Below are positions 534 to 42,570 of a stretch of 43,389 bases of DNA, piece after piece. Location: positions 1 to 43,389 of IMG/VR virus record IMGVR_UViG_2778261064_000026; one strand, written 5' to 3'. The notes beneath the pieces are model-generated. The model worked only from the letters and a program-made list of their open reading frames with translations, was not told the DNA's origin and searched no databases. Origin of the DNA: a virus (Duplodnaviria > Heunggongvirae > Uroviricota > Caudoviricetes). How positions within the stretch are numbered: the stretch's first letter is position 1; each line of letters opens with the position of its first letter. Made by a program: the position numbers and the translations under genes.

Positions 534-577
534 CGATATAAATATATCGTAATTCAAATAACAAAGAGGATTCTACT

Positions 578-823
578 ATGAAAAAGATTATCGCTGGTAT
601 CGTTCTTGCTCTGGGTTTGGTTGGTGCTGCAAATGCCGAACAATATGTACAGGGTGATAGTGTCAAGCGTGCTGCCGTTGCACCTTCTTTAAATCAACTG
701 TGTACTGAATTAGCACAGATTGCCGGAGTTGGTGACGATGACGACTTTATTACTGCGTGTGTATGGAGTCATATCGAGGATATTAATAAACGTGATGCAA
801 AACTAACTGGAAAGAAATATTAA
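578..823 (+). CDS. small secreted protein, 81 aa, with signal peptide (cleavage after ANA), two Cys and a DDDD patch
   Basis: ORF track; strong RBS aagagga; N-terminal MKKIIAGIVLALGLVGAANA; own terminator downstream. Confidence 0.5.
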   Translation: MKKIIAGIVLALGLVGAANAEQYVQGDSVKRAAVAPSLNQLCTELAQIAGVGDDDDFITACVWSHIEDINKRDAKLTGKKY

Positions 824-888: not shown

Positions 889-2568
889 ATGAAAACTAAA
901 CTGTATTCGTATATTCGCTTCTCGTCTATGCGTCAGAATGATGGTTCGAGTTATGAACGACAAATCAGGATGGCGAGAGAGATTGCGGCAAAGTATGACC
1001 TTGAACTGGTAAATGATTATCAGGATCTGGGTGTATCTGCGTTTAAGGGTGCTAACTCTAAAACAGGGGCGCTATCTCGTTTCCTTGATGCAATTGGTAG
1101 ATCCGTTCCTGTTGGTAGCTGGCTATTCATCGAAAACTTGGACCGTTTATCCCGTGCCGATATTGTCAGTGCGCAGGAGTTATTCCTTTCAATCATCCGT
1201 AGGGGAATAACCATTGTTACTGGCATGGATAACAAGATCTACTCGCTGGATACTGTTACCGCTAATCCGATGGACCTGATGTTCTCCATCCTTTTATTCA
1301 TCCGTGGTAATGAGGAAAGTCAGACTAAGCGCAATCGTACTAATTCAAGCGCACTGATTAAGATTAAATCGCATCAAGAAAATCCCCAGAATCCGGCAGT
1401 GGCAATCGAGGAAGTTGGAAAGAATATGTGGTGGACTGATACCACTTCCGGTTATGTGCTGCCTCATCCGGTGTACTTCCCTGTTGTTCAGGAGATTGTG
1501 GAATTACGGAAGAATGGACGTTCAACCGCCGAAATACTGGATCACCTTAACGAGACATATGCACCACCACCAGCAGTAAGCAACAAGAAGCATTCAAAAT
1601 GGTCACGGGCAATGGTTGAAAGGTTGTTCCATACCCGCGCTTTGATTGGTATCAAGGAAGTCTCTGTAGATGGCGTTAACTATGAGTTAAAGGATTATTA
1701 CCCTCGTGTTATTGATGACCCTACGTTCTATCACCTTAAGAAAAATATTGGTGCTAGAGCATGGAACTTTGGAGACAAGGAAGAAGTTAAACCGATCCCC
1801 CTGCTTAGTGGTATTGGCCTATTGAAATGTGATCATTGCGGTTGCGCTATGGTTAAAGTGAAGGGAACAAACAAACGTTCTGACCAGTATCGTTATACAT
1901 GTGATGCGACCCGTTCACGTAGACTTGATTGCGAGCATCCAAACTGGAGTTTTCGAGGGGATCAATTAGAGAAAGCTGTATTGCAATTGCTGGCTGATAA
2001 AATCTGGATTGCTGAGGATAAGGCTAATCCGGTTCCGGCGTTGAAAGTACAGGTTGATGAAATATCACGCAAGATTGATAACCTGATTGCCCTTTCTGCT
2101 ATGACAGGAGCAACGAAGGAGCTAGCCGATCAGATTACTACCCTCAATAGCGAGCGTGAAACACTCTACAATCAGATCAAGATGGCAGAAGAGGAAATGT
2201 ATTCTGTTGACTCTCAAGGCTGGGAGAAGCTCGCAGAATTTGATTTAGAAGATGTTTATAACGAGGAACGACTAAAGGTCCGGTTTAAGATTAAGCAAGC
2301 TCTAAAGCGGATCGGGTGTAGCAGGATTGACAGAAACAAAAACTTGTTTGTACTGGAATACATCGATGGAAAGACCCAGAGAGTTGTAATAGAAAATTCA
2401 AGAGGAACGAGGAAAGGCCGGATATTCATTGATTTGAAAACTATCAATGATAGGCAGATTCTGGAGAGTAACGGGCTTGTTCTGCATCCATGTTTAGACA
2501 TGCTGACAGATAAGAACTGGAAACCAGAGGAGGAAATACCAGGTCCATTACAGGAATTTGGAATTTAA
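889..2568 (+). CDS. large serine recombinase (integrase/resolvase-type), 559 aa
   Basis: N-terminal YIRFSSMRQ catalytic-Ser motif and LDRLSR motif of serine recombinases; Cys-rich zinc-ribbon-like segment (CDHCGC...C...C); C-terminal coiled coil. Confidence 0.8.
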   Translation: MKTKLYSYIRFSSMRQNDGSSYERQIRMAREIAAKYDLELVNDYQDLGVSAFKGANSKTGALSRFLDAIGRSVPVGSWLFIENLDRLSRADIVSAQELFLSIIRRGITIVTGMDNKIYSLDTVTANPMDLMFSILLFIRGNEESQTKRNRTNSSALIKIKSHQENPQNPAVAIEEVGKNMWWTDTTSGYVLPHPVYFPVVQEIVELRKNGRSTAEILDHLNETYAPPPAVSNKKHSKWSRAMVERLFHTRALIGIKEVSVDGVNYELKDYYPRVIDDPTFYHLKKNIGARAWNFGDKEEVKPIPLLSGIGLLKCDHCGCAMVKVKGTNKRSDQYRYTCDATRSRRLDCEHPNWSFRGDQLEKAVLQLLADKIWIAEDKANPVPALKVQVDEISRKIDNLIALSAMTGATKELADQITTLNSERETLYNQIKMAEEEMYSVDSQGWEKLAEFDLEDVYNEERLKVRFKIKQALKRIGCSRIDRNKNLFVLEYIDGKTQRVVIENSRGTRKGRIFIDLKTINDRQILESNGLVLHPCLDMLTDKNWKPEEEIPGPLQEFGI

Positions 2569-2604
2569 GCGGCCTAAATCGACGTATAACGAGCTAAAAC
2601 AGTT

Positions 2605-2636
2605 AAGGGGTACAGATGTACCCCTTTTTAATTTAA
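2605..2636. terminator. bidirectional terminator between convergent genes
   Basis: aaggggtacagatgtacccctt hairpin with flanking A and T runs. Confidence 0.55.
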
Positions 2637-2641
2637 TTGCG

Positions 2642-3817
2642 TTAGGCAGCGTCTAAGAGAGTATTAAAGTATTCATCCATTAAATCAGGACTGTCGTCAT
2701 CAATACAGAAAAATTCCGGTTTATTGATGCCGTAGAAGTGAGTATGTAGCTTGAATGTATCGTCATCAAATACATCTTTCTGGGATACCCACATATTAGC
2801 CTCGTCCGGTTGATTGGTTAGGTAGTCATAAACCAGTTGCTGTAAGTGTGGTAACTCATCAATAGTCAGAGTTTCCGACCATCCATCCTTGAAATCTTTG
2901 TAGGGTGCTGCATGAGTCTTGAAGCGTTGTTTTACTTCATGCTCTAAATCAACGGCTTTCCAACCATCCTCAAACTCATGAGTAAAGATTAAGCGGTGAG
3001 TGAAGTTGCTCTTTCTGGTTTGCTCTCTCATTCGTTCTTCTGGTTTCCGGGTAGTGATTCCAAATTTAATAAATTTGTCATCTAATAATTGAATATAGAA
3101 ACTAGCCTTACCCTGATAAGTCCGGTTAGACAGTTGCACCAGTTGGTCTTTAATGCAAAGCGGACAAGTGAAAGAATCAGCACATCTTAAATGAGATTCC
3201 CATTCGTGATTATGTGTCTTGCAATAGGTTTTAAATTTAACATCCTTTAGGTGTGGGGTGTTTATGATGAATCCTTTGAAGGTGTAAGGCGTACTCTCGC
3301 AACGTGCATTGATGATTGTCTCTTTGTCCTTAATAACTTCATCAAAAGTCTTGCCACTTCTTACCCGTTGGGATTTTTCAGCCATACAGATTTTGCAATC
3401 AAAATCGAAATCATCTTTGAGAGCATGTAATAGAGATGGCGTCATGATTTGATTGTGTTCAGGGCACAAAACACGGGATTTTGTCTTGTTGCGCCCTTTC
3501 CATTCTCCTTGCCATCCGAGGAATTTCTTTCCCTTCTCATTACAACGAGATTCCATTTTCAACCATACAGCCTTTTCAGTCTGGAGTAACTCACCCCCGT
3601 TAGTATCTTCCAGTTTGCGTAATTTGTAGTCCTTATATTCTTGTGTATCTAAATTGTAGATTCGAAAGTAAGTGTGATTACCCTTCCACGGTAGGATAAA
3701 TCCACCAAATACGAAAGCAGGTTCCAGTTTAGCGATGATTCGTTGTTGGTACTCTTCCGGCGATAAACCGCGAGTTTTCTTAACAAAAGGAATTTCGGCA
3801 GCGTAAGCAAGTTTCAT
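2642..3817 (-). CDS. T5orf172 (GIY-YIG-like) domain protein with several Cys-pair zinc-finger-like motifs, about 391 aa from internal ATG
   Basis: FIKFGITTRKPEERMREQ motif; multiple CxxC/CxxH pairs; start moved to MKLAYAAE because of RBS gaggaaact; track ORF extends to 3928. Confidence 0.5.
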   Translation of the reverse strand: MKLAYAAEIPFVKKTRGLSPEEYQQRIIAKLEPAFVFGGFILPWKGNHTYFRIYNLDTQEYKDYKLRKLEDTNGGELLQTEKAVWLKMESRCNEKGKKFLGWQGEWKGRNKTKSRVLCPEHNQIMTPSLLHALKDDFDFDCKICMAEKSQRVRSGKTFDEVIKDKETIINARCESTPYTFKGFIINTPHLKDVKFKTYCKTHNHEWESHLRCADSFTCPLCIKDQLVQLSNRTYQGKASFYIQLLDDKFIKFGITTRKPEERMREQTRKSNFTHRLIFTHEFEDGWKAVDLEHEVKQRFKTHAAPYKDFKDGWSETLTIDELPHLQQLVYDYLTNQPDEANMWVSQKDVFDDDTFKLHTHFYGINKPEFFCIDDDSPDLMDEYFNTLLDAA

Positions 3818-3876
3818 AGTAGTTTCCTCTAAAATAATAAGCTCACTACTATTTATTAGAGAAAATTGTCTTACTA

Positions 3877-3904
3877 TTGCATTCTCTATCTGGATGTGTA
3901 CAAT
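3877..3904 (+). promoter_or_regulatory. sigma70-like promoter (TTGCAT, 16-nt spacer, TACAAT) for the 3971 gene
   Basis: hexamers read directly from sequence. Confidence 0.3.
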
Positions 3905-3970
3905 ACGCGACCCTAAATCCCAAACCAACCATATTGAGGTTATGCCTATAAGTTAAAAAGTGAGGTCTAT

Positions 3971-4540
3971 ATGATTCCAGTAATGGCTAAAGATATTGTT
4001 TTTACTCCTAAATCCTCCCGTGCTGCAACTCCATCGGCATTAGAACAACGCATTCTGACTCACATCAAAGAGAAGGACTTACCGTTAGTCTTTCATGGCT
4101 TTCTGGGTGAGTTTAAAGGGCTTCATTCAAGAATTGCTCTTACATGTACCCGATGCGGCAATAGAGCCGACAAATCAGCTACCAACCTGCTTAATGAAGG
4201 TAAACGCTGTGCATGTCTCAAAAGTGATTACTTTCAATATAAAGCGGGTGTGCCTTATCTCTATGTAATGAAATCAGGGGATATTGGTAAATTTGGTGTA
4301 ACAAAGTCAATCATCAAGCGACGTGTTAATCTGGGTGTACGCAATCCCGGTCATAACTTTGATATTGTCTTTGCTGGTGAAATGCCATCAATGAAACATG
4401 CTTTAGCCACTGAAAGAGCAATAAAGAGATTACTGGATGTGGGTATAGGCGGGATTGAATACGGCAAAACTGAAACATTCCACTACTGCAATAAATCACT
4501 AAACAATATAAAGAATATTGCAAGTGTGGAGTGGAACTAA
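3971..4540 (+). CDS. T5orf172/GIY-YIG-like domain protein, 189 aa, N-terminal Cys cluster
   Basis: YLYVMKSGDIGKFGVTKS motif; RBS gtgagg; stop overlaps helicase start (TAATG). Confidence 0.4.
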   Translation: MIPVMAKDIVFTPKSSRAATPSALEQRILTHIKEKDLPLVFHGFLGEFKGLHSRIALTCTRCGNRADKSATNLLNEGKRCACLKSDYFQYKAGVPYLYVMKSGDIGKFGVTKSIIKRRVNLGVRNPGHNFDIVFAGEMPSMKHALATERAIKRLLDVGIGGIEYGKTETFHYCNKSLNNIKNIASVEWN

Positions 4541-6030
4541 TGCAAGATATTAAAATTCATTTTCAAGATTACAGTTTCGTTAAGGTTGATTGCTCTCCTT
4601 CTATCGGAATGGAATTAAGAGATTATTTCTCGTTTGAGGTTGAAGGGGCTAGGTTTAGCCCCCGCTACAAGTATTCCGGCTGGGATGGACGAATAAGACT
4701 GTTTACGCATGAAAATATCCTACCAATTGGACTATTAAAAACGTTGGGTGTCTTCGTTAAAAATATGGGCTATTCAGTCTGGATTGACCCGCGATTGCTT
4801 GAGAAGGAAGATGTAACCAAAGACGCGATTAATGAATGGATTGATTCCCTAGAAGTGTATTCCGGTTCCAATAAAATCAATCCTTACTGGTATCAAAGGG
4901 AGGCAGTCTTTCAGGGTATCCATAATCGCCGTAGAATGCTGGTTCTTCCTACCAGTGCCGGAAAGTCATTGATTGCTTGTATGCTGTCTCGTTGGTACTT
5001 AGAGAACTACACCGGAAAGATTCTAATCATTGTCCCGACTACATCGCTGGTGGTTCAAATGAGGGATGATTTTGTTGATTATCGGTTATTCCCTTATGAA
5101 GCAATCCATACAATGATGAGTGGTAGCGGGAAACATCCGGGAGACAGGTTAATCACGGTTAGTACCTGGCAATCAGCTTGCAAGATGCCTCCTGAATGGT
5201 TCAAACAATATGGAATGTTGATAGTTGATGAATCGCATAAGGCTAGTGCCAAAAATATTACCAATATCATTAACGGAATGAATCATTGCCAGTTTAAGAT
5301 CGGTATGACTGGTTCCCCGAAAGAATCAAAGTGCCATTTAATGCAATACGTCGGTATGTTCGGTGATATTTCTAAGATCGTGAGTATTGACCGCCTGATG
5401 GAAGAAGGGCAGGTGACAAAACTGAAAATTAACTGTCTTTTCCTTCGTTATACCGATGAGGAATGTAGCGCGGTTAAGGGGCGAGAATATGCGGAAGAGA
5501 TCAAGTACATCACTTCGCACGGGAGACGAAATAAGTTTGTGTGTAATTTGGCGCTAAAACTCGCTAAGAAGAACGAAAACGTATTTCTGATGTTCCGTAA
5601 CACTAAACACGGAAAACTTATGTATGACGCGTTACAGAAGGTACATGATAAGGTTTATTACATTGATGGTGGAGTTAAGACAGAAGAACGTGATGAATTT
5701 AAGAAAATGGCGGAGGGTGACACCGGGATCATTTGTGTTGCGTCTTATGGTGTGTTCTCTACTGGTGTTTCAATTAAGAACTTGCACCATGTCATTTTCG
5801 GTCATCCGGTGAAAGAATCAACTATCGTTCGTCAGAGTATTGGCCGTGCATTGCGTAAACATGGTTCTAAGGATATTGCGACCGTCTGGGATCTTATCGA
5901 TCATCTGTGTATATTCGGTCGTAACGGAAAAGTCAAGCATAAAAATTATGCGGTAAAACATGCACTTGAGAGAATCCGCTATTATCTAACCGACAAGTTC
6001 AGCTATGCAACTAAAACAATTGCTATATAA
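4540..6030 (+). CDS. SF2 DNA helicase, UvsW-like (recombination/repair helicase), 496 aa from ATG 4540
   Basis: Walker A LPTSAGKS, DExH box IVDESHKAS, motif VI QSIGRALRKHG; N-terminal domain and motif order resemble my recollection of T4 UvsW. Confidence 0.7.
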   Translation: MQDIKIHFQDYSFVKVDCSPSIGMELRDYFSFEVEGARFSPRYKYSGWDGRIRLFTHENILPIGLLKTLGVFVKNMGYSVWIDPRLLEKEDVTKDAINEWIDSLEVYSGSNKINPYWYQREAVFQGIHNRRRMLVLPTSAGKSLIACMLSRWYLENYTGKILIIVPTTSLVVQMRDDFVDYRLFPYEAIHTMMSGSGKHPGDRLITVSTWQSACKMPPEWFKQYGMLIVDESHKASAKNITNIINGMNHCQFKIGMTGSPKESKCHLMQYVGMFGDISKIVSIDRLMEEGQVTKLKINCLFLRYTDEECSAVKGREYAEEIKYITSHGRRNKFVCNLALKLAKKNENVFLMFRNTKHGKLMYDALQKVHDKVYYIDGGVKTEERDEFKKMAEGDTGIICVASYGVFSTGVSIKNLHHVIFGHPVKESTIVRQSIGRALRKHGSKDIATVWDLIDHLCIFGRNGKVKHKNYAVKHALERIRYYLTDKFSYATKTIAI

Positions 6031-6031
6031 C

Positions 6032-6063
6032 AAAAAAGCGCCCACTAGAGGCGCTTTAATTTT
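6032..6063. terminator. bidirectional terminator separating rightward block from leftward late operon
   Basis: aaagcgcccactagaggcgcttt hairpin flanked by A-run and T-run. Confidence 0.6.
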
Positions 6064-6415
6064 ATCCATTCCACCGTGATTTTTTTGATCTGGAATCAAT
6101 ATGCGTAAAGGTTTTATATTTGCCTAAGCCGTATTGAGTAGGATATTTCCCATCAAGATAAGCATGGACAATATCAGGGGAGACACCCTTGACCACAATG
6201 TCAGCCGCACGACCTCGAACGTGATAGCTGTTGGTTGCACCGCCTACATTCTTGTTATGAGTCGGACAACGGTTCCCACTGTTAATAATTACTGGTTTCC
6301 CGAAGTGTTCGCGTACATCCTCAAGAATCACCAGTAATTCAGCGTCGATTGTATCATAATCACATTTTCCGCATTTACATTTAAATTCCTTGCGAGAAAA
6401 ATGCTTACTTAACAT
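6062..6415 (-). CDS. peptidase M15-family cell-wall hydrolase (putative endolysin), 117 aa
   Basis: SGNRCPTHNKNVGGATNSYHVRGRAADIV and HID motifs typical of zinc D-Ala-D-Ala carboxypeptidase-like phage lysins. Confidence 0.6.
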   Translation of the reverse strand: MLSKHFSRKEFKCKCGKCDYDTIDAELLVILEDVREHFGKPVIINSGNRCPTHNKNVGGATNSYHVRGRAADIVVKGVSPDIVHAYLDGKYPTQYGLGKYKTFTHIDSRSKKSRWNG

Positions 6416-12307: not shown

Positions 12308-13078
12308 TTATTTCTTGAAGTCTTCGTACATTCTACGAAGGTTGTATTTTGGATGGCCTAAGCTAACCATGATTTGACTCAATTTAACCGCGCCGGGTTT
12401 ACCGTTTTCAATCCACACGCGCCGGATTTCATCGTAATGCTGCCAACAGCCTTGACCTTTAGCAATACGTATAGAATGTGTATATTTCTTGGTAGAGCTT
12501 TCTGGTCGCTTGCGCCCTAGATGTGCTTTTCTAATCTTTTCGCGTGTTTCTTCTGATACAGGTTTACCATAACGGGGGTTATTCTCTCCACGAGTAGCAG
12601 CCGATAATTTAGCTAATATTTCTGGGTTTGTTACTTTTTTGCCTCTCATTGCACTAGGTTTACCATAGCGATGGTTCTTTTCACCCATTCGAGATGCCGA
12701 CATTTTAGCTCTAGATTCCGGTGTATGTTTTCTTCCGTAAAAAGGATGATTTTCACCACCATCAAAACCACCGACACCACCAGGAGCTATATTAAGACAT
12801 ACACCACGCCCCCATTTTTCGCGTGCTGCCTCCACTAACAGGATTTCACATTCAAACGCTTCCTCGGCAGTATCAAACAATTTTGAACGAACAACTTCAA
12901 ATTCATATATCGGGGTTTCTGATTCTTTATTTTTACGCTTCATCATTTTAATAACTTTACCCGATCCCACATATCCATCGTCTAGATTTGTGGTTGTTCT
13001 TTTTCCGACGTAATGATAGATTTTACCAGAGCGATTAGATTTAATAGTGGTGTGATAAACGTAATGGAATTTTTGCAT
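12308..13078 (-). CDS. GIY-YIG homing endonuclease with NUMOD3-type DNA-binding repeats, 256 aa
   Basis: N-terminal YHYVYHTT...GKIYHYVGKR...GYVGSG GIY-YIG motif; three repeats HPFYGRKHTPESRAK / NHRYGKPSAMRGKK / NNPRYGKPVSEETREKIRKAH. Confidence 0.75.
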   Translation of the reverse strand: MQKFHYVYHTTIKSNRSGKIYHYVGKRTTTNLDDGYVGSGKVIKMMKRKNKESETPIYEFEVVRSKLFDTAEEAFECEILLVEAAREKWGRGVCLNIAPGGVGGFDGGENHPFYGRKHTPESRAKMSASRMGEKNHRYGKPSAMRGKKVTNPEILAKLSAATRGENNPRYGKPVSEETREKIRKAHLGRKRPESSTKKYTHSIRIAKGQGCWQHYDEIRRVWIENGKPGAVKLSQIMVSLGHPKYNLRRMYEDFKK

Positions 13079-18104: not shown

Positions 18105-21100
18105 TCATTTACAGGATTTAATAGCCGCAAGTTCAGCTTTAACAGCTTTCAACTCTTCGTTCATCGCATCATACTTAGTCGTTAATTCCTGAAAGGCTTT
18201 CACGAAAAGAGCATTGATACTAGAAACAGAAATAGTTTTAATTTCTCCTGGATTTTCGGTATCTCCATCGCTGCAAACGTGCACAGCTTCCGGCATAACT
18301 TTTTCCACATCTTGAGCAATGACACCTAATTCGCGTCCAACCACTGTATCATCAGAAAGTGATTTAACTTTATCGTAGGAATATACGGTTAAGCTGTTTA
18401 ATTTATCCAGCGCACCTTCTTCCAATTCTTCCTTGTTGATCTTAAGACGTTCATCAGATCGAATATGCACATCGTTAAAGCTACCGTTACCCGGCGTGTA
18501 AAAGAACCCATCGTGATGGAACTCAAATACAGCTTGAGGGTGTCCGTTATCAGGTGAGTTTTCCGCAGATCCAACACGAATAATTGCTTGTCCCCAATTG
18601 TTAGGGATACGACGCATACCAAAATCGACGGCAGTTGTATACCCTTGATTGGTGATTAAACTTCTTGCTTTAACAATCGGATAATAACAGTCTTGTCCAA
18701 CATAGCCATGATCGACGAATATTGGCGCTTCCACTCGCCACTGATTACCCCAATCACCTGGTTGACTAGCGGTCCAACGTTCACCATGAACATATAATCG
18801 AGCGTTATTAACATGAACCATTTCGACGCCTTTTGGACTTAATGCAATATCCCCAGCGTTCGTAAGATTTATCGCGGCATTAGTAGCATAGCTATAGAAC
18901 GCTAATCCATTATCACCACCGCCTTTACCAATATACCAGTTGTTGTTGTCAGCACACGTACCCAACAAATATACAGACGAATCACCACTTTCGGCATTCA
19001 TGATAATTGCATCAGATCCACGATTAATTTTCATTTTCCCGAAGAAGGTGTTTTTAATGGTATTATCCCATAGACGTTCAAATTCGGCTAAAAATCCTTT
19101 TGAGTCACGAAGACTTAAAACGTTATTTCGACCTGTATTGCTTGCTCCCCAATGGACGAGTTCCATATAGTCCATAGATTGACGAGAACCAGCTTTAAAG
19201 AAAAGATTGTCCTCAAGACGAGTGCTACCATCAATTCCAAGATGCAAACACCGAGCGGTTGCAGTACCACCTAAATACAATCCACCGTCCGCAAAATCAT
19301 AGCTGAATGGTCTGCGATTATTCCAACTACCAAAAGAATCTTTTAAATCGGTAGTAAGAATATGGAAGCTAGAACCATCATTGCGTAACATCAAACCATA
19401 GTTACCGCCTTTGACAGCCAAACGAGCATTTTCAGATAATGCAACTTCGCTATTCATTACAATTTTCTGGCCTTTACCACCAGTAATATGTAATTCACCA
19501 TCTTCAATCAGGTTTATCGAGTTTTGACCGTTATCGTTCCACCAAATAAAATCTTTGGTTGTTCCATCACCAAAACCAAACCAGCCATTACGAACATCTT
19601 GACCAGTGCGATAATCCATAAAATTAAAATGGCTTGATTCGTTTGGTCCTCGACGAATATCAATACCAGAATTTCCAGTAACACCGCCATCCAATGTTAA
19701 TTTCTTGACATGTAACCCGGATGTTACTGTCAGCAATAATTCCTGATTTGTATCTTCGTATCCAGTAGCAAGACGATATGCGTTATCATCAACTGTCTCA
19801 TGCCAGATTGTAGCTGGTGCACAACTACGGAAGCGACGCAACATCTTTTTAGCATTTGTCGGTTGTTCGTTTAAATGCTCAATGTCGTATTGGCCTTGAT
19901 GGTTTCCAGCAAAATTTAATGTCCCACGGTTGCTAAAGTTATTAAACGATGAAATGTTAAGAGCATCAAAAATTTCATCTGCAACAGGTTTTTCACCGCC
20001 CAGGTATTCAGGAGTATCCAACAGGTTTAAAGAAACACCACCGGAAGAAACTTGATATTCTGCTAAAACAAATCCTGTATGTGCACCATAGTAAGCGTAA
20101 AGATCGTAATTATCACCATCGGTAGGAATTGCACAAAAATGTTGTTCGTAATACCAAATAGTATAATACGCATTGAATACAACACCTTTCGGGCTATTGT
20201 TGCCGCAACGGATCACCAGTTCAATAACATTGGCTTGTCCATTCTGTCCGACGTTATAACCGTTACCACCCACTAAACGGATCTTAGCCGTACGACCGTG
20301 TTGTTGTGGCATTGTCAAAGTGCCTAGTTTAAACCAACCGCCCTCGATCCCAAAATTAAGCGTCTTCTGGAAAAGTCGGTCAATTTCTGCTTTCGAATAT
20401 GCGCCAATTTCAGCCGGAGTAGGTTTATCACCTTCGTGATACATGCGGTGAGAATATGCTAAATGACCCAATTCATCATAGCCGTATGTTCTTACCGTAG
20501 CATGTGGATTAGACCCATAAGTGAACTCAAAACCACGAGCATGATTAACACCGGATGGATGGGGAACATGCAACGCTAAAGCAATATGACCAGCTAGATC
20601 ATTCATGCGGAATGCACCAAAGTAATCAAGATTACGAGCATTTGGATCATCAAAATAGTTTGCGGTCTTAGACAGCAAATAACCATCAGTGTAAGTGTTT
20701 ACGTGTTTTTTGATGTACTTACCGTCACTCGATCCGTCGGCTGCATCAATACGGCTTTCTAAGCGTGCCAATTCAGAATCAGTGTAAGACTTGTTATTGT
20801 CAACTTTGCTATGAATTGCTGAATTTTTGGCTTCAACATCACGGGTTAATGCTGCGACGTTATCCGCTGCCTCTTGCTTGTTTGCTGCAATAACACTATT
20901 AAGGCTATCGCGCGTAGCGGTTAGCTGATTTTCCGCATAAATTTTATTTGCTGCGATAGTGCGATCAGTCTCGGCCTTAATCAAATCAACTTTGTCATTG
21001 ATAGCTTTATCATTGCTTGCGATGGTTGCATCAGTACGGGATTTAATATCATCAACTTTTTTATTGATGCGGGTGTCCAGTTCCTGAGTTGCTACAGCAG

Positions 21101-21533
21101 CCGCATTTTTATTAGCGGTGATGGTATCGGACAATTCAGATTTAACACCAGCAAGATCGGAAGCAGCTTTATTTTTATTGGCTTCGATTGTCGCGTCGGT
21201 TTCGCGTTTAATTGTATCAACTTTATTGTTAATTTCTGCGTGATTGTTGGCAATAGTAGAATCGGTAGTTCGTTTAATTTCGTCTACTTTAGCGTGAATA
21301 TTGCGGTCGTTTACTGCAATTGTGCTATCTAATTCTTGTTTGTTAGCATCAACTTTAGATTCTAATGCCGCATGAGTTTCAGGAGAAACAGAGATTTGAA
21401 CTACTTCATGATCTCGGTCTTTGGTAAAAATAACATGGTCTTTAAGGTTGATTGCTACCTCACCGACCTGTAATTGTTCCGGCGTTGGCTTTTTGCCAGA
21501 AACATTAGTTCGTTTAAATTGGATTGATTGCAT
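18105..21533 (-). CDS. side tail fiber protein with C-terminal intramolecular chaperone auto-processing domain (peptidase S74-like), 1142 aa
   Basis: N-terminal coiled-coil repeats (VDEIKRTTDSTIA / VDTIKRETDATIEA / VDDIKSRTDATIA / VDLIKAETDRTIA); C-terminal HIRSDERLK plus about 117 aa typical of self-cleaving chaperone domains. Confidence 0.8.
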   Translation of the reverse strand: MQSIQFKRTNVSGKKPTPEQLQVGEVAINLKDHVIFTKDRDHEVVQISVSPETHAALESKVDANKQELDSTIAVNDRNIHAKVDEIKRTTDSTIANNHAEINNKVDTIKRETDATIEANKNKAASDLAGVKSELSDTITANKNAAAVATQELDTRINKKVDDIKSRTDATIASNDKAINDKVDLIKAETDRTIAANKIYAENQLTATRDSLNSVIAANKQEAADNVAALTRDVEAKNSAIHSKVDNNKSYTDSELARLESRIDAADGSSDGKYIKKHVNTYTDGYLLSKTANYFDDPNARNLDYFGAFRMNDLAGHIALALHVPHPSGVNHARGFEFTYGSNPHATVRTYGYDELGHLAYSHRMYHEGDKPTPAEIGAYSKAEIDRLFQKTLNFGIEGGWFKLGTLTMPQQHGRTAKIRLVGGNGYNVGQNGQANVIELVIRCGNNSPKGVVFNAYYTIWYYEQHFCAIPTDGDNYDLYAYYGAHTGFVLAEYQVSSGGVSLNLLDTPEYLGGEKPVADEIFDALNISSFNNFSNRGTLNFAGNHQGQYDIEHLNEQPTNAKKMLRRFRSCAPATIWHETVDDNAYRLATGYEDTNQELLLTVTSGLHVKKLTLDGGVTGNSGIDIRRGPNESSHFNFMDYRTGQDVRNGWFGFGDGTTKDFIWWNDNGQNSINLIEDGELHITGGKGQKIVMNSEVALSENARLAVKGGNYGLMLRNDGSSFHILTTDLKDSFGSWNNRRPFSYDFADGGLYLGGTATARCLHLGIDGSTRLEDNLFFKAGSRQSMDYMELVHWGASNTGRNNVLSLRDSKGFLAEFERLWDNTIKNTFFGKMKINRGSDAIIMNAESGDSSVYLLGTCADNNNWYIGKGGGDNGLAFYSYATNAAINLTNAGDIALSPKGVEMVHVNNARLYVHGERWTASQPGDWGNQWRVEAPIFVDHGYVGQDCYYPIVKARSLITNQGYTTAVDFGMRRIPNNWGQAIIRVGSAENSPDNGHPQAVFEFHHDGFFYTPGNGSFNDVHIRSDERLKINKEELEEGALDKLNSLTVYSYDKVKSLSDDTVVGRELGVIAQDVEKVMPEAVHVCSDGDTENPGEIKTISVSSINALFVKAFQELTTKYDAMNEELKAVKAELAAIKSCK

Positions 21534-36746: not shown

Positions 36747-37187
<441 letters not shown>

Positions 37188-37226
37188 TCAATTCCCGCCA
37201 AGGATAGCAGGAAACCTGATGCTTTA

Positions 37227-38204
<978 letters not shown>

Positions 38205-38335
38205 TTATCGTTATGATCTACAAAGGCCACCAGCATAACAAATCCGTGGTCGGTGGCAAAAAAAGCAGATTTCGCTTATTAAAACTGCATATTGATTGAA
38301 GTTTGAATAAACGCGCGATTTTTTTAAAAAGTTTG

Positions 38336-38364
38336 TTGACCTCAGGTCATGATTTCCCTAAATT
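38336..38364 (+). promoter_or_regulatory. tRNA promoter (TTGACC, 17 nt, TAAATT, GC-rich discriminator)
   Basis: read directly from sequence upstream of serX. Confidence 0.45.
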
Positions 38365-38398
38365 AGCGCCCGTTCCAGCAAGACAGGAACGACAATTT

Positions 38399-38486
38399 GG
38401 TGAGGTGTCCGAGTGGCTGAAGGAGCACGCCTGGAAAGTGTGTATACGGCAACGTATCGGGGGTTCGAATCCCCCCCTCACCGCCA
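38399..38486 (+). tRNA. serX: tRNA-Ser (anticodon GGA)
   Basis: GGTGAGGTGTCCGAGTGGCTGAAGGAGCACGCCTGGAAAGTGTG...GGTTCGAATCCCCCCCTCACCGCCA with long variable arm and encoded CCA; ghrA neighbour. Confidence 0.9.
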
Positions 38487-38492
38487 GATTAT

Positions 38493-38530
38493 AAGCGCAT
38501 GTTATTGTTTAACATGCGCTTTTTTATTTT
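38493..38530 (+). terminator. rho-independent terminator of serX
   Basis: aagcgcatgttattgtttaacatgcgctt plus ttttttatttt. Confidence 0.7.
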
Positions 38531-38635
38531 CCCTTCCAGACAGTATGCCATCGGGTATGCCATCTGAAACCGGTTTATATGCCCCGCGATCATATCTTAT
38601 CGGACAATTTCCGATCTTTGAGCATACTGGCAAAG

Positions 38636-39478
38636 CTATACTGCCAGCATATCAGGATAGTGTTTTGCGATAATATCATTCAGTCTGTCAACCAGTTCTG
38701 GTTTTCTGAACGTGATATGCGCGGAGCCCTTCTTAAAGTATCTGATGCTGAACATCTCATCTTCATAGCTCTCTTTACCCTGAACAGACTGAATGTGATC
38801 ATCCAGACGAAGGGTGATGTTTCCCCGGTTGTCGGGGATTGGTTTACCGCTGAACAGGTGCAACATTCTTTCCAGATCGGCGAGTCGGTCAGCCTGTTGT
38901 CCGGTGATAAGATGAAATCCCCACCGGTCCCATCTCACCAGATTGTTGACGATAATTTTACTGCCAAATTTACAGGGGCAATTGGTTTTGTAATTCCAGT
39001 TCAGCCCTCTGAAGACGTTGATCACCCCTCGCTCAAACACCTCATCCTTATTCTGGTGCAGTTGTTCAAATGTGCTCAGAATGTTCGCTTCGCTGATTTC
39101 CGGAAAATTATCGTACTCCAGTGACCGGTACCATGTATCACGGGCCTGCGTATCCATTAATGACAGCATCCCGGAACGTTGCATCAGGTCACGCCAGATT
39201 TCGCGATCAAGATTCCGGGTAATGGCTTTCATTGCTGTTTCGGGTTTCTCCATCAGCCAGCAGCCGCAGCGAAAATCCTGTTTCATGGCCCAGTCCGGGG
39301 CAGTTTTACCTCCGATGCTTTCCGTCAGCACCGAGATTTCAGCCAGTTGTCGGATAAGTGTGTCGATTTGCAACAGTGTACTCTTTCGTACAGCCAGAAT
39401 GTGGCGAATGCTGGTTGAGCAGATAACGTCCGTATGCCCGTTGACCACTTCCGGACGGGAGATTGTGATATCTGACAT
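38636..39478 (-). CDS. DUF4942-type island protein, 280 aa
   Basis: recollection of conserved gene set of CP4-type E. coli islands; position beside toxin-antitoxin module. Confidence 0.45.
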   Translation of the reverse strand: MSDITISRPEVVNGHTDVICSTSIRHILAVRKSTLLQIDTLIRQLAEISVLTESIGGKTAPDWAMKQDFRCGCWLMEKPETAMKAITRNLDREIWRDLMQRSGMLSLMDTQARDTWYRSLEYDNFPEISEANILSTFEQLHQNKDEVFERGVINVFRGLNWNYKTNCPCKFGSKIIVNNLVRWDRWGFHLITGQQADRLADLERMLHLFSGKPIPDNRGNITLRLDDHIQSVQGKESYEDEMFSIRYFKKGSAHITFRKPELVDRLNDIIAKHYPDMLAV

Positions 39479-39562
39479 AATCGATATTCCTTTTTGCAGA
39501 TAAATGAAAACGCCAGCCCTGTGCAGGCTGGCGTCAGAGGAATGAAGTCTGGTGAGTGAGCT

Positions 39563-39760
39563 TCACCGGTTCTGGTGCAGAAGCTGCAGATGACGCAGGG
39601 TACGGACATCCTCCCGGGCCTGTTCGATACAGGGCAACAGTGCTGCTGAATCCGTTTTATCCTCATCGTTGTCAAAGATAATTCCCGATCCGCAGTCGAT
39701 ATTGTCCTGCAGCCACGCAATCAGAATATCCAGCGCTGTTTCCGTGGTTAATGATTTCAT
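39563..39760 (-). CDS. small island protein (DUF957-like), about 65 aa from MKSL
   Basis: ORF track (39563..39805) trimmed to internal ATG to avoid overlap; conserved neighbourhood. Confidence 0.3.
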   Translation of the reverse strand: MKSLTTETALDILIAWLQDNIDCGSGIIFDNDEDKTDSAALLPCIEQAREDVRTLRHLQLLHQNR

Positions 39761-39771
39761 GTTGTTCCTGG

Positions 39772-40263
39772 TTACCAGTCGAAAGTGGGTAAACCCGGCA
39801 GGCATTCAGCGCTGGCATCCAGATGAATGAGACTGACGCCATAACGCCGGATGAGTGTGACGACCAGACGACGGAACGTTTTTGACAGCCCCAGGCGTTT
39901 AAGCCGCAGAACCGGGTATGACCACGCATCGGTACGTAACAGATATCCGCTACCTGTAAAATGAATCCATTCTGATTCACCGAAGTCACTGGTCTGGTGT
40001 GACAGCGAGTACAACCAGGCGTTGTCCGTTTCCGTGATATGTGCGGTACTGCAGCGTATGCCGGTAAGGGTAGCAAATGGTGGCGTGCATTCTGCTGAGG
40101 TCTGGTCAGATTCATCAACAACACGAAGGGAGTAGCCGTTATCGCAGACCATGTTAATCAGTTCAGCGAGCTCAATACCATCGACGTCAACGACAATGCG
40201 CCCCATGTTCAGTGCCTGTACGTTAACGCTGTCGGCTTCCAGTGTCAGGGCCAGTTTCATCAT
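39772..40263 (-). CDS. YeeW-like/DUF5983-type protein, 163 aa
   Basis: gene directly downstream of cbtA-family toxin, as in CP4-type islands. Confidence 0.4.
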
Positions 40264-40634
40264 TTCGCCTCCGGATACTTACCCAGGGTAATGTTATTTA
40301 CCGTTCTGTAATTGTCGCGGGTCATCAGGCCGGTCGCCCGGCGAGCCCGGAGGATATCAATACTGTTTATTAACTGAGAGCGGGGACAGGTGCTGAATCC
40401 CGGCTGGTCGGTACGCACCAGCGCGTATTTTTCCACGAGAAAATTAACTGCATCACACAGTGAAATGCCTGCCTCAATATGCTGCTCAATCACACGTTCA
40501 TCGGCAAACGGTGTGTCATTCAGTGTGAGGCCATAATGCTGGTCCAGCAGTCGGATGAGCAGTGTCTGCCAGATGGTGACGGGAGACGGGCAGCGAGATA
40601 CCTCCCGTACATGTGTGTCGGATAATGTTTTCAT
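40260..40634 (-). CDS. cbtA: type IV toxin, CbtA/YeeV/YkfI family, 124 aa
   Basis: [59 protein letters not shown]... matches CbtA-family sequence as I recall it; track ORF extends to 40736. Confidence 0.8.
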
Positions 40635-40680
40635 CTTAAGTTCTCTGTAACTGGTAGTGCTAAAGGTGAGAGCTTCGGGG

Positions 40681-41055
40681 TTATGAGGTGGTTGCGGGTG
40701 CTGGTGTCGGATAAACAGCCAGATAAACGTAACCACAGGAGCCGAGGGTGTCGGCTTCGCAGGTCAGCCCTTTTGCATTCAGCGTGACGGTATGCTGATA
40801 TCGGGGATTCAGTTCACCGCTGGTGAGCATGAGTTCCAGTTGTTTCATCAGCAGCGGAAAGGCCTGGTCCAGATGGTATGCATCTGCGTCGCTGAAGCGG
40901 CCTCTGATACCGGCGCGGTCGGCAAGGTAATGCAGGCGGTTACCCTCTTGCACCAGACGAGCGCCAAAACAGGGCCTCACTGTGCAGGGAAGCCCCCACC
41001 AGGGGCGGTCGTGATTGTCATCGGGATGAGTTATCCCGGAGAGTTTGTCTGACAC
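40681..41055 (-). CDS. cbeA: type IV antitoxin, CbeA/YeeU/YafW family, 124 aa
   Basis: [51 protein letters not shown] matches YeeU-family; upstream of toxin. Confidence 0.8.
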
Positions 41056-41217
41056 GATAAAATCCTCTCTGAAAAGTGGTTAAGAATGGTTTAACGATGA
41101 CAGGTCAGCCGGCGCGCTGACCGGTTTCGGTGAAGATGTATGCATTGATGAGAATGGCCTCATCCACAGCGGCGTCTGAGGTCATCTGGTCGTACTCGTT
41201 TCCCGGGTGACGGAACA

Positions 41218-41439
41218 TCAGTTCAGGGTGACACTCATCAGCCGGACATACGGGCCAAAACTGTCCTTACGGCGTTCTGCAAACACGGCAAGAACGCCGG
41301 GAATATCCTGCACTTCACGACCAGTATACGCTTCAGCACTGCCGTGCCAGCGATACTTACCGGTACAGAACGGAAAAAGACGGGATGCAGGATGCTGTTG
41401 GTGAATACGCATGGCTTCACCACGGGTGATGATTCTCAT
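41218..41439 (-). CDS. YeeT-like (DUF987) protein, 73 aa
   Basis: MRIITRGEAMRIHQQHPASRLFPFCTGKYRWHGSAEAY... matches K-12 YeeT family as I recall it. Confidence 0.6.
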   Translation of the reverse strand: MRIITRGEAMRIHQQHPASRLFPFCTGKYRWHGSAEAYTGREVQDIPGVLAVFAERRKDSFGPYVRLMSVTLN

Positions 41440-41502
41440 GATGTGATACCTCTGAAGACAGAAGATAAAAGTGAAAACAGGTGTGATGTTGGTTGTGACG
41501 GG

Positions 41503-42480: not shown

Positions 42481-42570
42481 GAGGTTATTCCTTATAAAAA
42501 GTAAATGAATGGAAGAAGCCCCGGGGCAGGAACAGATGTGAGTCAGGACTGCACTTTCAGTGAAACGGCA

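What the first reader, a model, noticed from the sequence alone, without database searches (positions are those of the whole stretch)
2642..3817. Zinc-finger-rich T5orf172-domain protein divergent from a second T5orf172 gene
The minus-strand protein combines at least four Cys/His pairs (LCPEHNQ, CKICM, CKTHNHEWESHLRC, CPLC) with a T5orf172-type GIY-YIG-like motif (FIKFGITTRK). It is divergently transcribed from a second, shorter T5orf172-like gene (3971..4540). Two different GIY-YIG-superfamily genes back-to-back could be homing endonucleases, or could be nucleases of a defence or anti-defence module.
Basis: partly seen in the sequence, partly recalled or inferred. Interest (0 to 1): 0.45.

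Follow-up and report, generated by a model that had tools for sequence, protein, structure and literature searches.

The report
Two zinc-finger homing-type nuclease genes in prophage
Two back-to-back genes in an E. coli prophage encode zinc-finger, GIY-YIG-type DNA cutters of an already described family of putative phage homing endonucleases, and they sit exactly where the prophage carries DNA traded with virulent T4-like phages.

Summary
ORF 2642..3817 (-) encodes a 391-aa protein with three CapR-type repeats. Two of them carry conserved CxxH...CxxC zinc ligands. A C-terminal T5orf172/MUG113 (GIY-YIG-fold) nuclease domain follows. ORF 3971..4540 (+) is a shorter paralogue with one CxxC...CxC CapR module plus the nuclease.

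Both belong to the CapR/T5orf172 family of putative free-standing homing endonucleases described in ICP1 and other phages, so the protein type is not new.

The context is more interesting. The window is a roughly 36.7-kb prophage integrated in ycdX with a serine integrase. The two genes lie in a terminator-bounded cassette that is colinear with the inh-uvsW-uvsW.1-uvsY region of virulent Krischvirus (RB49-like) phages. The cassette carries patches 93-100% identical to those phages.

The long gene's slot holds alleles only 26-65% identical, inside prophages whose flanking genes are 95-100% identical. The catalytic signature is invariant, and dN/dS is about 0.11.

The gene-less alleles are deletion scars formed between 8-9-bp direct repeats. 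They are not naive homing sites. Neither protein matches a PADLOC defence model.

The best reading is site-specific homing-type nucleases bordering a zone of virulent-temperate phage exchange. Cleavage and homing remain untested.

The parts
2605..2626 (.). Bidirectional terminator hairpin between the serine recombinase gene and the long nuclease gene. It marks the left edge of the variable cassette.
   Evidence: Terminator scan finds it on both strands. Homology between prophage variants breaks at 2652-2656, just inside it.
2642..3817 (-). Long CapR x3 / T5orf172 nuclease gene (391 aa plus stop).
   Evidence: AlphaFold2 mean pLDDT 86.5. dN/dS 0.11 across 7 intact alleles.
3602..3766 (-). Repeat 0 (about aa 18-72): a CapR-like helix plus three strands, without zinc ligands. 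It includes the family N-terminal motif.
   Evidence: Same secondary-structure pattern as repeats 1 and 2 in the model. The N-terminal motif is shared with the short gene and with all alleles.
3383..3580 (-). Repeat 1 (about aa 80-145): CapR homology domain with C118xxH121...C141xxC144.
   Evidence: Pfam CapR best stretch covers aa 87-122. Motif positions; conservation.
3152..3349 (-). Repeat 2 (about aa 157-222): CapR-type module with C199xxH202...C218xxC221.
   Evidence: C199, H202 and C218 invariant and C221 nearly invariant in 21 sequences. Motif positions.
2813..3112 (-). T5orf172/MUG113 (GIY-YIG fold) nuclease domain, about aa 236-335. Signature residues are Y241, K251-F-G253, R262 and E315 (in GWSET).
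2645..2812 (-). C-terminal acidic extension (aa 336-391) with no family match. Model confidence is low after about aa 360.
   Evidence: pLDDT falls to 40-64 in the last blocks. Conserved only among the closer alleles.
3818..3970 (.). Divergent intergenic control region. A rightward sigma-70-like promoter has TTGCAT at 3877-3882 and TACAAT at 3899-3904. A leftward conserved element at 3842-3859 reads AATAAATAGTAGTGAG on the minus strand.
   Evidence: Aligning this region from eight prophage variants shows both elements conserved. L005 and L031 have a perfect TATAAT, and Salmonella L010 has a perfect TTGACA. Coordinates. The generic promoter scan did not call either element.
3971..4540 (+). Short CapR x1 / T5orf172-like nuclease gene (189 aa). 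The CapR module spans about 4040-4219 (C59xxC62...C80xC82). The nuclease spans about 4244-4495 (Y98, K107xG109, R117, E168 in GKTETF). Its TAA stop overlaps the uvsW ATG (TAATG).
   Evidence: dN/dS 0.11. RefSeq starts it 12 nt later, giving 185 aa.
4540..6030 (+). UvsW-type helicase gene (496 aa), the cargo next to the short nuclease gene. Nucleotide homology to Krischvirus uvsW begins at its ATG.
   Evidence: Pfam UvsW_N, ResIII and Helicase_C. 80% aa identity to phage Whisky UvsW. Homology spans 4540-5907. dN/dS 0.06.
5340..5840 (+). Recent conversion patch inside uvsW. It is 88-96% nt identical to Krischvirus Whisky in this window and 93-100% in most sister prophages. The rest of the gene is 56-78% identical.
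   Evidence: Sliding-window identities.
6035..6057 (.). Bidirectional terminator between uvsW and the endolysin gene. It marks the right edge of the variable cassette.
   Evidence: Variant homology resumes at 6028.
2645..2652 (.). GGCAGCGT, one copy of the 8-bp direct repeat (second copy at 3797-3804). A 1152-bp deletion between the two copies removed the long gene in some prophages.
3890..3898 (.). CTGGATGTG, one copy of the 9-bp direct repeat (second copy at 4433-4441). A 543-bp deletion between the two copies removed most of the short gene in the same prophages.
889..2568 (+). Large serine recombinase (prophage integrase), convergent with the long nuclease gene. This is context, not part of the nuclease unit.
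   Evidence: Pfam Resolvase, Recombinase and Zn_ribbon_recom. The prophage/ycdX junction lies at window position about 1.

Best explanation
Both genes encode modular, site-specific DNA endonucleases of the CapR/T5orf172 class of free-standing homing-endonuclease-type genes. In this reading, tandem CapR zinc-finger modules (three in the long protein, one in the short) read a long DNA site. The C-terminal GIY-YIG-fold domain, with Tyr, Arg and Glu, cuts nearby.

The genes sit at the edge of a cassette in a ycdX-integrated E. coli prophage that is homologous to the inh-uvsW-uvsY region of virulent Krischvirus phages. The proposed mechanism is that the nucleases break the equivalent region in a genome lacking them. 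That genome could be an incoming Krischvirus or a related prophage or phage. Recombinational repair using the homologous flanks then copies sequence across, which would produce the mosaic borders seen at the gene ends.

Shown here: the domain architecture, the fold, conservation of the catalytic signature, purifying selection, allele turnover at a fixed slot, borders of Krischvirus homology that coincide with the gene ends, and loss by deletion.

Inferred only: DNA cleavage, the identity of the target, and any causal role of the nucleases in the exchange.
For: Architecture and family:
- CapR is above its Pfam cutoff in both proteins, and MUG113 (GIY-YIG clan) is above its cutoff in the long one.
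- Both match PHROG 681 'endonuclease', at 7.8e-44 and 2.1e-18.

Catalytic signature:
- Y241, K251, G253, R262 and E315-T316 are invariant across alleles down to 21-26% identity.
- The short family keeps the same signature: Y98, K107, G109, R117 and E168-T169.
- In the T5orf172 nuclease Odn, changing the equivalent Glu (E180A) abolishes cleavage (PMC8263062).

Selection: dN/dS is 0.11 for both genes, and all sampled alleles are intact.

Behaviour typical of the published HEG-island pattern:
- The slot holds alleles 26-65% identical, while the flanking recombinase and endolysin are 95-100% identical. Break points lie within about 15 nt of the ORF ends.
- This is the pattern described for HEG islands (PMC10448857).
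- Other family members occupy other intergenic slots in sister prophages.

Borders of exchange:
- Krischvirus homology starts at the uvsW ATG, which overlaps the short gene's stop.
- In variants L004, L006 and L013, Krischvirus inh homology (84-98% nt) ends at one shared point about 62 nt upstream of the long-slot gene's start.
- The uvsW conversion patch is 93-100% identical to Krischvirus.

Mobility in lytic relatives: the closest phage homologue (30% identity) lies between uvsW and uvsW.1 in phages Whisky and JK32. That site is empty in phage Phi1.
Against: - No cleavage or homing has been demonstrated.
- Every copy found is single and in the same slot. This holds in 12 of 5426 complete E. 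coli genomes, in the Salmonella relatives and in the IMG/VR prophage contigs.
- No relative above about 30% identity was found in lytic phage records. Contig searches returned close copies only from this prophage family or E. coli-type contigs. There is therefore no direct sign that these alleles move between phage and prophage.
- The gene-less alleles are deletion scars, not naive targets.
- The uvsW conversion patch (5340-5840) lies 800 nt from the nuclease gene, so it need not have been started by these enzymes.
- Long vertical residence under purifying selection in a temperate element is not what the classic invade-decay-loss cycle of a selfish HEG predicts. In Salmonella the long gene is 65% identical while the recombinase is 73% identical.
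- The T5orf172 Pfam model itself is below its cutoff in both proteins.
Confidence: 0.55

Rival explanations
1. Domesticated prophage weapon. The nucleases are kept because they help the lysogen or prophage by cutting incoming Krischvirus (T4-like) DNA, or the DNA of competing relatives, near inh/uvsW. This would be superinfection exclusion or marker exclusion, analogous to ICP1 Odn. The exchanged patches would be by-products of surviving such encounters.
For: - The slot is fixed, with long vertical residence in E. coli and Salmonella prophages.
- Both genes are under purifying selection, dN/dS 0.11.
- Very divergent alleles turn over at one slot, as at defence hotspots.
- The cassette is an insulated, terminator-bounded unit with its own conserved promoter.
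- The direction of the 93-100% uvsW patch and of the 96-98% inh fragments is Krischvirus into prophage. That implies cells or prophages that survived contact with the phage.
- A precedent exists: a T5orf172 nuclease re-purposed against a rival element (PMC8263062).
Against: - Neither nuclease, nor the alternative cassette proteins, hit any PADLOC model.
- The genes are lost by clean deletion in at least 4 complete genomes, and by IS insertion in another, without loss of the prophage.
- No phenotype data exist.
- The same facts fit a selfish element with ongoing homing opportunities.
Confidence: 0.25
2. DNA-binding regulator only. Like PLE CapR, the protein uses its zinc fingers to repress a promoter, either its own divergent promoter or a Krischvirus promoter, and does not cut DNA.
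For: CapR-type modules are proven DNA-binding zinc fingers that repress a phage promoter (PMC8096241). GIY-YIG homing enzymes such as I-TevI also autorepress (discussed in PMC10448857). The gene sits beside a conserved divergent control region.
Against: CapR itself lacks the nuclease domain. Here the Tyr/Arg/Glu nuclease signature is invariant across alleles that otherwise share only 21-30% identity. That is hard to explain without selection on catalysis.
Confidence: 0.08
3. Accessory factor of the neighbouring serine integrase, such as a recombination directionality factor. This would explain why the gene is always convergent with the recombinase gene.
For: Adjacency to the recombinase is constant in every locus examined.
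Against: Recombinases that are 95-100% identical are paired with slot alleles only 26-37% identical, and with none at all in the deletion variants. That is incompatible with a co-evolving protein partner. The protein has a nuclease architecture and no resemblance to a known directionality factor. The adjacency is explained by the cassette lying between two terminators.
Confidence: 0.03
4. Inert hitch-hikers. The genes are leftovers carried in with a block of T4-like DNA, with no present activity.
For: Parts of the cassette are clearly decaying in sister prophages. Examples are inh fragments, a 55-aa uvsY stub, a 143-aa UvsW N-terminal stub, and deletion and IS scars.
Against: The ORFs are intact, with dN/dS 0.11 in all sampled A-type alleles. 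Catalytic and zinc ligands are conserved.
Confidence: 0.07

Closest known systems
CapR-domain T5orf172 putative homing endonucleases of vibriophage ICP1 (e.g. gp165, gp174) and other phages (Netter 2021, PMC8096241; Barth 2023, PMC10448857)
   Same: Same 'beads on a string' build: repeated CapR-type zinc-finger DNA-binding modules followed by a C-terminal T5orf172 nuclease domain. They are free-standing intergenic genes beside recombination or replication genes. Different alleles occupy the same slot, and they sit at the borders of exchanged DNA ('HEG islands').
   Different: Those genes are in virulent phages. These are in an integrated temperate prophage, bordering DNA shared with an unrelated virulent phage genus. 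The long protein uses CxxH...CxxC ligand sets instead of the CxxC...CxC described for CapR; the short protein has the classic form. Sequence identity to any phage member is 30% or less.
Krischvirus CapR/T5orf172 gene between uvsW and uvsW.1 (phage Whisky QZI94019, 361 aa; also phage JK32)
   Same: Closest phage relative (29.7% identity over 86% of the query), with the same N-terminal motif and nuclease signature. It is also attached to uvsW. It shows presence/absence among Krischvirus genomes, since the site is empty in Phi1.
   Different: It lies downstream of uvsW rather than upstream, and in a lytic phage. It has lost the first Cys of one zinc module.
Odn (ICP1 gp88), an origin-directed T5orf172 nuclease (PMC8263062)
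   Same: A T5orf172 nuclease domain whose cleavage depends on the conserved Glu. It is the one experimentally proven nuclease of this domain family read about here, and an example of a homing-type nuclease turned against a rival element.
   Different: [quoted passage not shown] It is a phage weapon against a satellite. No target is known for the proteins studied here.
PLE CapR (PMC8096241)
   Same: Its zinc-finger DNA-binding module is homologous to the modules here. The short protein has the same CxxC...CxC arrangement.
   Different: CapR has no nuclease domain and acts as a transcriptional repressor of the ICP1 capsid operon.
T4 Seg proteins and I-TevI (classical GIY-YIG homing endonucleases; PMC2988022, PMC2330249)
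   Same: GIY-YIG-superfamily catalytic fold joined to separate DNA-binding modules. They are free-standing genes between conserved phage genes, and they cause co-conversion of flanking markers. This comparison rests on established knowledge.
   Different: The domain order is opposite: in Seg and I-TevI the nuclease is N-terminal, here it is C-terminal. The DNA-binding modules differ (NUMOD/HTH against CapR zinc fingers). T5orf172 is a distinct branch lacking the canonical second Tyr (F252 here).

Membership tests
GIY-YIG superfamily / T5orf172 (PF10544) nuclease domain | Match to a clan member HMM above the curated cutoff | tested here: met
   Long protein: MUG113 PF13455 scores 26.8 bits against a cutoff of 22.3. 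T5orf172 itself scores only 16.3 against 20. Short protein: T5orf172 scores 13.7, below cutoff. Its 40%-identical homologue in L006 reaches 21.1, above 20. The short family aligns to the long family's nuclease domain at 97.2% probability.
GIY-YIG superfamily / T5orf172 (PF10544) nuclease domain | GIY-YIG alpha/beta fold | tested here: met
GIY-YIG superfamily / T5orf172 (PF10544) nuclease domain | Catalytic Tyr (strand 1), Arg (helix 1) and Glu | tested here: met
   Y241, R262 and E315 are invariant in 21 sequences. Y98, R117 and E168 are invariant in the short family. Assigning E315 and E168 as the catalytic Glu rests on their position in the predicted secondary structure and on analogy with Odn E180 and I-TevI E75. 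It does not come from a structural superposition.
GIY-YIG superfamily / T5orf172 (PF10544) nuclease domain | Metal-dependent DNA cleavage | not testable with these tools
   Needs purified protein.
CapR-domain T5orf172 homing-endonuclease-type genes (Barth 2023) | One or more CapR homology zinc-finger domains N-terminal to the nuclease domain | tested here: met
   PF21817 scores 37.9 bits (two stretches) in the long protein and 25.2 bits in the short one, against a cutoff of 24.2. All 6 short-family members hit CapR.
CapR-domain T5orf172 homing-endonuclease-type genes (Barth 2023) | Four zinc ligands arranged CxxC...(24-26 residues)...CxC | tested here: inconclusive
   The short protein has C59xxC62...C80xC82, with 17 residues between the pairs. 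The long protein has CxxH...CxxC twice, with 19 and 15 residues between. The ligand number is kept, but ligand identity and spacing differ. Zinc binding was not tested.
Homing endonuclease gene (functional definition) | Presence/absence of the gene at one site among otherwise similar genomes | tested here: met
   12 complete E. coli genomes carry both genes, 4 carry neither at the same site, and others carry different alleles. However, the empty sites are deletion scars.
Homing endonuclease gene (functional definition) | A naive, uninterrupted target site exists in relatives | tested here: not met
   No naive site was found among the prophages. The gene-less alleles retain the promoter, ribosome-binding site, ATG and seven codons. 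The window's intergenic region has no significant similarity to the Krischvirus inh-uvsW spacer: alignment score 20 against a shuffle mean of 22.3.
Homing endonuclease gene (functional definition) | Spread to new genomes or sites (close copies in different contexts) | tested here: not met
   Close copies occur only in this slot of this prophage family. At family level, distant paralogues do occupy other slots.
Homing endonuclease gene (functional definition) | Cleavage of the gene-less allele and biased inheritance of the gene and flanking markers | not testable with these tools
   Needs in vitro cleavage mapping and mixed-infection crosses.
Known anti-phage defence systems (PADLOC-DB 2.0) | Match of the nucleases to a defence-system protein model | tested here: not met
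   No family at E <= 0.01 for either nuclease or for the alternative cassette proteins. Only generic helicase hits were found for UvsW.

The most novel reading that the evidence does not exclude
The cassette may be a homology-armed anti-Krischvirus device carried by a temperate phage. The prophage would keep copies of the virulent phage's inh/uvsW/uvsY region flanked by zinc-finger GIY-YIG nucleases. These would cut the incoming T4-like genome at that region, possibly switched on by the invader's own late-transcription machinery through the conserved AATAAATA element upstream of the long gene. The break would either kill the invader or force repair from the prophage copy. The repeated 93-100%-identical patches would be scars of such encounters. 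This would be a prophage-encoded, homing-endonuclease-derived defence that also opens a route of gene flow between virulent and temperate phages.
Probability: 0.15. Interest if true: 0.7.

Novelty: new member of a known kind. Interest (0 to 1): 0.42.

Why it matters
The protein type is already described, so the genes alone add little. The setting adds more. A temperate E. coli/Salmonella prophage family carries a block colinear with the recombination-gene region of virulent RB49-like phages. That block contains patches up to 100% identical over 500 nt, and homing-type nuclease genes sit exactly at its edges. The nuclease alleles are swapped cleanly at a fixed slot.

This is a concrete, well-sampled natural case for testing whether such nucleases drive gene flow between virulent and temperate phages. 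It also allows a test of whether a prophage can use them against T4-like phages. Dozens of sequenced variants are available, including clean natural deletions of each gene. Both questions bear on phage evolution and on how phage-therapy phages may pick up or lose DNA in lysogens.

Tried and rejected
- Defence-system assignment: PADLOC gave no hit for either nuclease or for the alternative cassette proteins. NCBIfam gave no hit for either nuclease.
- Integrase accessory or directionality-factor idea: rejected because near-identical recombinases pair with 26-37%-identical alleles, or with none.
- Reading the gene-less alleles as naive homing sites: rejected after reading the junctions.
- Looking for these alleles in lytic phages. 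The tblastn of 50,697 phage records found at best 30% identity for the long gene and 26% for the short gene. IMG/VR, metagenome and GTDB genome scans returned close copies only from this prophage family or E. coli-type contigs. Those contig scans use one short peptide pattern and can miss relatives.
- Looking for a remnant of the Krischvirus inh-uvsW spacer in the window's intergenic region: no similarity above shuffles.
- The generic sigma-70 scan found nothing in the intergenic region. The promoter proposed here rests on conservation across variants.
- A T4-late-promoter reading of the AATAAATA element is only a 7-of-8 match. TATAAATA is generally over-represented in this AT-rich prophage, with 8 copies against 2.85 expected. 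I do not rely on it.
- Repeat search in 2500-6200 found no convincing repeated operator-like sites.
- Literature search found no paper on this cassette. Barth 2023 does not mention RB49/Krischvirus, temperate phages or helicases.
Full report
**1. The observation**

The minus-strand ORF listed as 2642..3928 most likely starts at the ATG at 3817, preceded by GAGGAAA. RefSeq annotates the same 1176-nt gene in near-identical loci as 'GIY-YIG nuclease family protein'.

The four Cys/His motifs are present at C118xxH121, C141xxC144, C199xxH202 and C218xxC221.

Pfam family matches for the long protein:

| Family | E-value | Bits | Cutoff |
|---|---|---|---|
| CapR homology domain PF21817 (two stretches) | 2.1e-9 | 37.9 | 24.2 |
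| MUG113 PF13455 (GIY-YIG clan) | 8e-6 | 26.8 | 22.3 |
| T5orf172 PF10544 | 0.014 | 16.3 | 20 |

PHROG 681 'endonuclease' matches at 7.8e-44.

The divergent neighbour 3971..4540 (189 aa) hits CapR at 25.2 bits and T5orf172 at 13.7 bits. It hits PHROG 681 at 2.1e-18. It carries the classic CapR ligand set C59xxC62...C80xC82.

The two proteins are paralogues. They share an N-terminal motif. The short family aligns with the last zinc module plus the nuclease domain of the long family, at hhalign probability 97.2% and E 3.4e-11.

**2. Structure and catalytic signature**

An AlphaFold2 model built on 21 homologues has mean pLDDT 86.5. It shows three successive helix-plus-three-strand repeats at about aa 18-72, 80-145 and 157-222. 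The last two hold the zinc ligands. A beta-beta-alpha-beta-alpha domain follows at aa 236-335, and then a poorly predicted acidic tail.

Across alleles that share only 21-30% identity, these residues are invariant: Y241, K251, G253, R262, F282, D290, E292, G312, E315 and T316. The short family keeps Y98, K107, G109, R117, E148, G165, E168 and T169.

In the one T5orf172 enzyme whose biochemistry I read about, ICP1 Odn, mutating the conserved Glu (E180A) abolishes cleavage in vitro and in vivo (PMC8263062). I infer that E315 and E168 are the equivalent residues. This inference rests on their place after the second helix. I did not superpose structures.

**3. What the window is**

GC content is about 41% up to roughly 36.7 kb and above 50% after that. 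The first 8 kb recur at 89-99% identity in 58 of 5426 complete E. coli genomes, always on the chromosome. There the element abuts a truncated ycdX next to csgG-ycdZ-ycdY. The right-hand part of the window is ghrA plus common island genes.

The element encodes the following:
- terminase, portal and a protease-capsid fusion
- tape measure, tail tip and tail fibres
- an M15 endolysin
- a large serine recombinase at 889..2568

IMG/VR holds the same element as predicted prophages of 35-45 kb. It is therefore a temperate, siphovirus-like prophage of about 36.7 kb. Window position 1 lies at its left junction.

**4. The cassette**

The two nuclease genes and a UvsW-type helicase gene lie between two bidirectional terminators, at 2605-2626 and 6035-6057. 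The helicase gene spans 4540..6030, and its ATG overlaps the short gene's TAA. Sequence outside the terminators is 95-100% conserved among E. coli prophages, while the inside varies.

| Variant | Loci | Content between the terminators |
|---|---|---|
| A | window, L002, L007, L016-L020 | long gene, short gene, uvsW |
| A' | L005 | a 337-aa allele (29% identical) in the long slot, short gene (93%), uvsW (84%), a uvsY stub |
| B | L003, L008 | uvsW only |
| C, C' | L004, L006 | a 332-aa allele (27%), an inh fragment, with or without a 193-aa short-type gene; no uvsW |
| other | L013 | a 398-aa allele (37%) plus inh |
| other | L031 | a 416-aa allele (27%), short gene (44%), uvsW and a full uvsY |
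| Salmonella | L009-L012 | alleles 65% and 41% identical, with uvsW and uvsW.1 or a UvsW stub |

In L005 a third family member (348 aa, three CapR stretches) replaces a small ORF just upstream of the recombinase gene.

**5. The cassette is Krischvirus DNA in Krischvirus order**

Phage Phi1 has the order hoc(-), inh(-), uvsW(+), uvsW.1(+), uvsY.-2(-), uvsY(-). The prophage variants carry pieces of the same region in the same order and orientation:

| Gene | Identity to Krischvirus |
|---|---|
| uvsW | 80% aa to phage Whisky |
| inh fragments | 93-96% aa; 96-98% nt |
| inh in L013 | 80% aa |
| uvsW.1 | 85% aa |
| uvsY stub | 89% aa |

L031 also carries a fragment of gene 51/27 (84% nt).

Nucleotide homology to Krischvirus uvsW begins at the ATG, which is the short gene's stop. 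In L004, L006 and L013 the inh homology ends at one shared point, about 62 nt upstream of the long-slot gene's start.

Within uvsW, positions 5340-5840 are 88-96% identical to Whisky in this window and 93-100% in most sister prophages. The rest of the gene is 56-78% identical. The same stretch is only 61-81% identical in L005, L031 and L010. This is a recent, polymorphic conversion patch, and its direction is Krischvirus into prophage.

A second T-even-like patch lies in the tail-fibre gene at 18283-20671, 79-87% identical to gp37 genes.

**6. Presence/absence and what it means**

Of the 5426 genomes, 12 carry both genes at 95.9% identity or more, always as one copy in this slot. Four carry only short remnants.

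Reading the junctions shows that the remnants are deletions:
- The long gene was removed between two copies of GGCAGCGT, at 2645 and 3797. This left the promoter, ribosome-binding site and ATG, with MKLAYAA fused to the stop.
- The short gene was removed between two copies of CTGGATGTG, at 3890 and 4433. This left its last roughly 100 nt in front of uvsW.

A codB-integrated relative has the long gene cut by an IS3 element.

Where the genes are present they are intact and under purifying selection:

| Gene | dN/dS |
|---|---|
| long nuclease | 0.11 |
| short nuclease | 0.11 |
| recombinase | 0.15 |
| uvsW | 0.06 |
| endolysin | 0.04 |

**7. Comparison with what is known**

Netter et al. showed that CapR is a zinc-finger DNA-binding repressor related to the N-terminal parts of ICP1 T5orf172 proteins, with a CxxC...CxC ligand set (PMC8096241).

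Barth et al. described T5orf172 genes with one to several CapR, DUF723 or DUF4397 (also written DUF4379 in the paper) zinc modules as putative homing endonucleases. They are enriched in several phage lineages, sit next to essential genes and bracket 'HEG islands' of high identity. Cognate slots are filled by homologous or unrelated nuclease genes (PMC10448857). The two genes here fit that description point by point.

The closest phage relative (30% identity) lies between uvsW and uvsW.1 in Krischvirus Whisky and in JK32. That site is empty in Phi1. The family is modest in size: 344 cluster representatives at E <= 1e-3, and 12 at E <= 1e-30, among 1.84 billion proteins.

What I did not find in those papers is a temperate prophage as the carrier, or exchange with an unrelated virulent genus.

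**8. Mechanism and rivals**

I favour site-specific, homing-type endonucleases whose breaks and repair shape the cassette borders (confidence 0.55). The steps shown and the steps inferred are listed under the best explanation.

The main rival is that the same enzymes have been domesticated as a prophage weapon against Krischvirus or competing relatives (0.25). In its favour:
- the slot is fixed
- the genes have long vertical residence in E. coli and Salmonella
- allele turnover resembles that at defence hotspots
- the phage-to-prophage direction of the patches implies survival of encounters

Against it: there are no PADLOC hits, and the genes are lost cleanly in some lineages.

A regulator-only role (0.08) is disfavoured by the invariant catalytic signature. 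An integrase accessory role (0.03) is disfavoured by mismatched divergence. Inert hitch-hiking (0.07) is disfavoured by dN/dS.

**9. Verdict**

The finding is real and correctly typed, and it belongs to a known kind of gene. The surrounding virulent-temperate exchange zone is the part worth a follow-up experiment.

Noticed in passing
window 5340-5840 (inside uvsW 4540..6030): A roughly 500-nt patch is 88-96% identical to Krischvirus Whisky here and 93-100% identical in most sister prophages. The rest of the gene is 56-78% identical. Variants L005, L031 and L010 lack the patch (61-81%). This is a recent, polymorphic gene conversion from a virulent phage into a prophage.
   Followed up: yes
window 18283-20671 (inside the 1142-aa tail-fibre ORF 18105..21533, minus strand): 79-87% nucleotide identity to gp37 distal long-tail-fibre genes of Krischvirus and other T-even-type phages. 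This is a second T-even-derived patch in this siphovirus-like prophage.
   Followed up: partly
window 12308..13078 (minus strand): A 256-aa ORF with three NUMOD3 motifs that matches PHROG 314 'homing endonuclease'. It is wedged between tail genes and is a third, unrelated homing-type gene in the same prophage.
   Followed up: partly
L005 3979-5025 (corresponds to window about 585-864, between ORF 578..823 and the recombinase gene): In strain FDAARGOS_1267 a 348-aa protein with three CapR stretches plus a T5orf172 domain replaces the small ORF upstream of the recombinase gene. This is another slot used by the same nuclease family.
   Followed up: partly
window 3842-3859 (minus-strand reading AATAAATAGTAGTGAG, 33 nt upstream of the long gene's ATG); also window 537-544: The element is conserved upstream of every allele in the long slot, including Salmonella. 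It resembles the T4 late promoter TATAAATA at 7 of 8 positions. A perfect TATAAATA precedes ORF 578..823 with a very similar ribosome-binding-site and start arrangement. TATAAATA occurs 8 times in the window against 2.85 expected. Its function is untested.
   Followed up: partly
C-termini of long-slot alleles P0009, L005 6809-7819 and L004 5645-6640: Three otherwise divergent alleles end in the same acidic tail, ELDLSPLE[A/D/T]L. The window's allele ends in DLMDEYFNTLLDAA instead. The shared tail could be a short interaction motif.
   Followed up: no
L031 4954-5361 and 5422-5736: A metagenomic variant of the prophage keeps a full-length uvsY (52% aa identity to Whisky). It also holds a fragment 84% nt identical to the Krischvirus gene 51/27 region, which suggests the ancestral T4-like block was longer.
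   Followed up: partly
L015 (E. coli 06-00048, NZ_CP015229.1 438501-448938): A related element with a similar serine recombinase is integrated in codB instead of ycdX. Its long nuclease gene is truncated to 138 aa by an IS3-family insertion.
   Followed up: no
window about 36766-43389: Host-like DNA with GC above 50% carries ghrA and genes typical of CP4-type islands (DUF4942, DUF932, antirestriction, toxin-antitoxin). It lies next to the prophage's right end.
   Followed up: no
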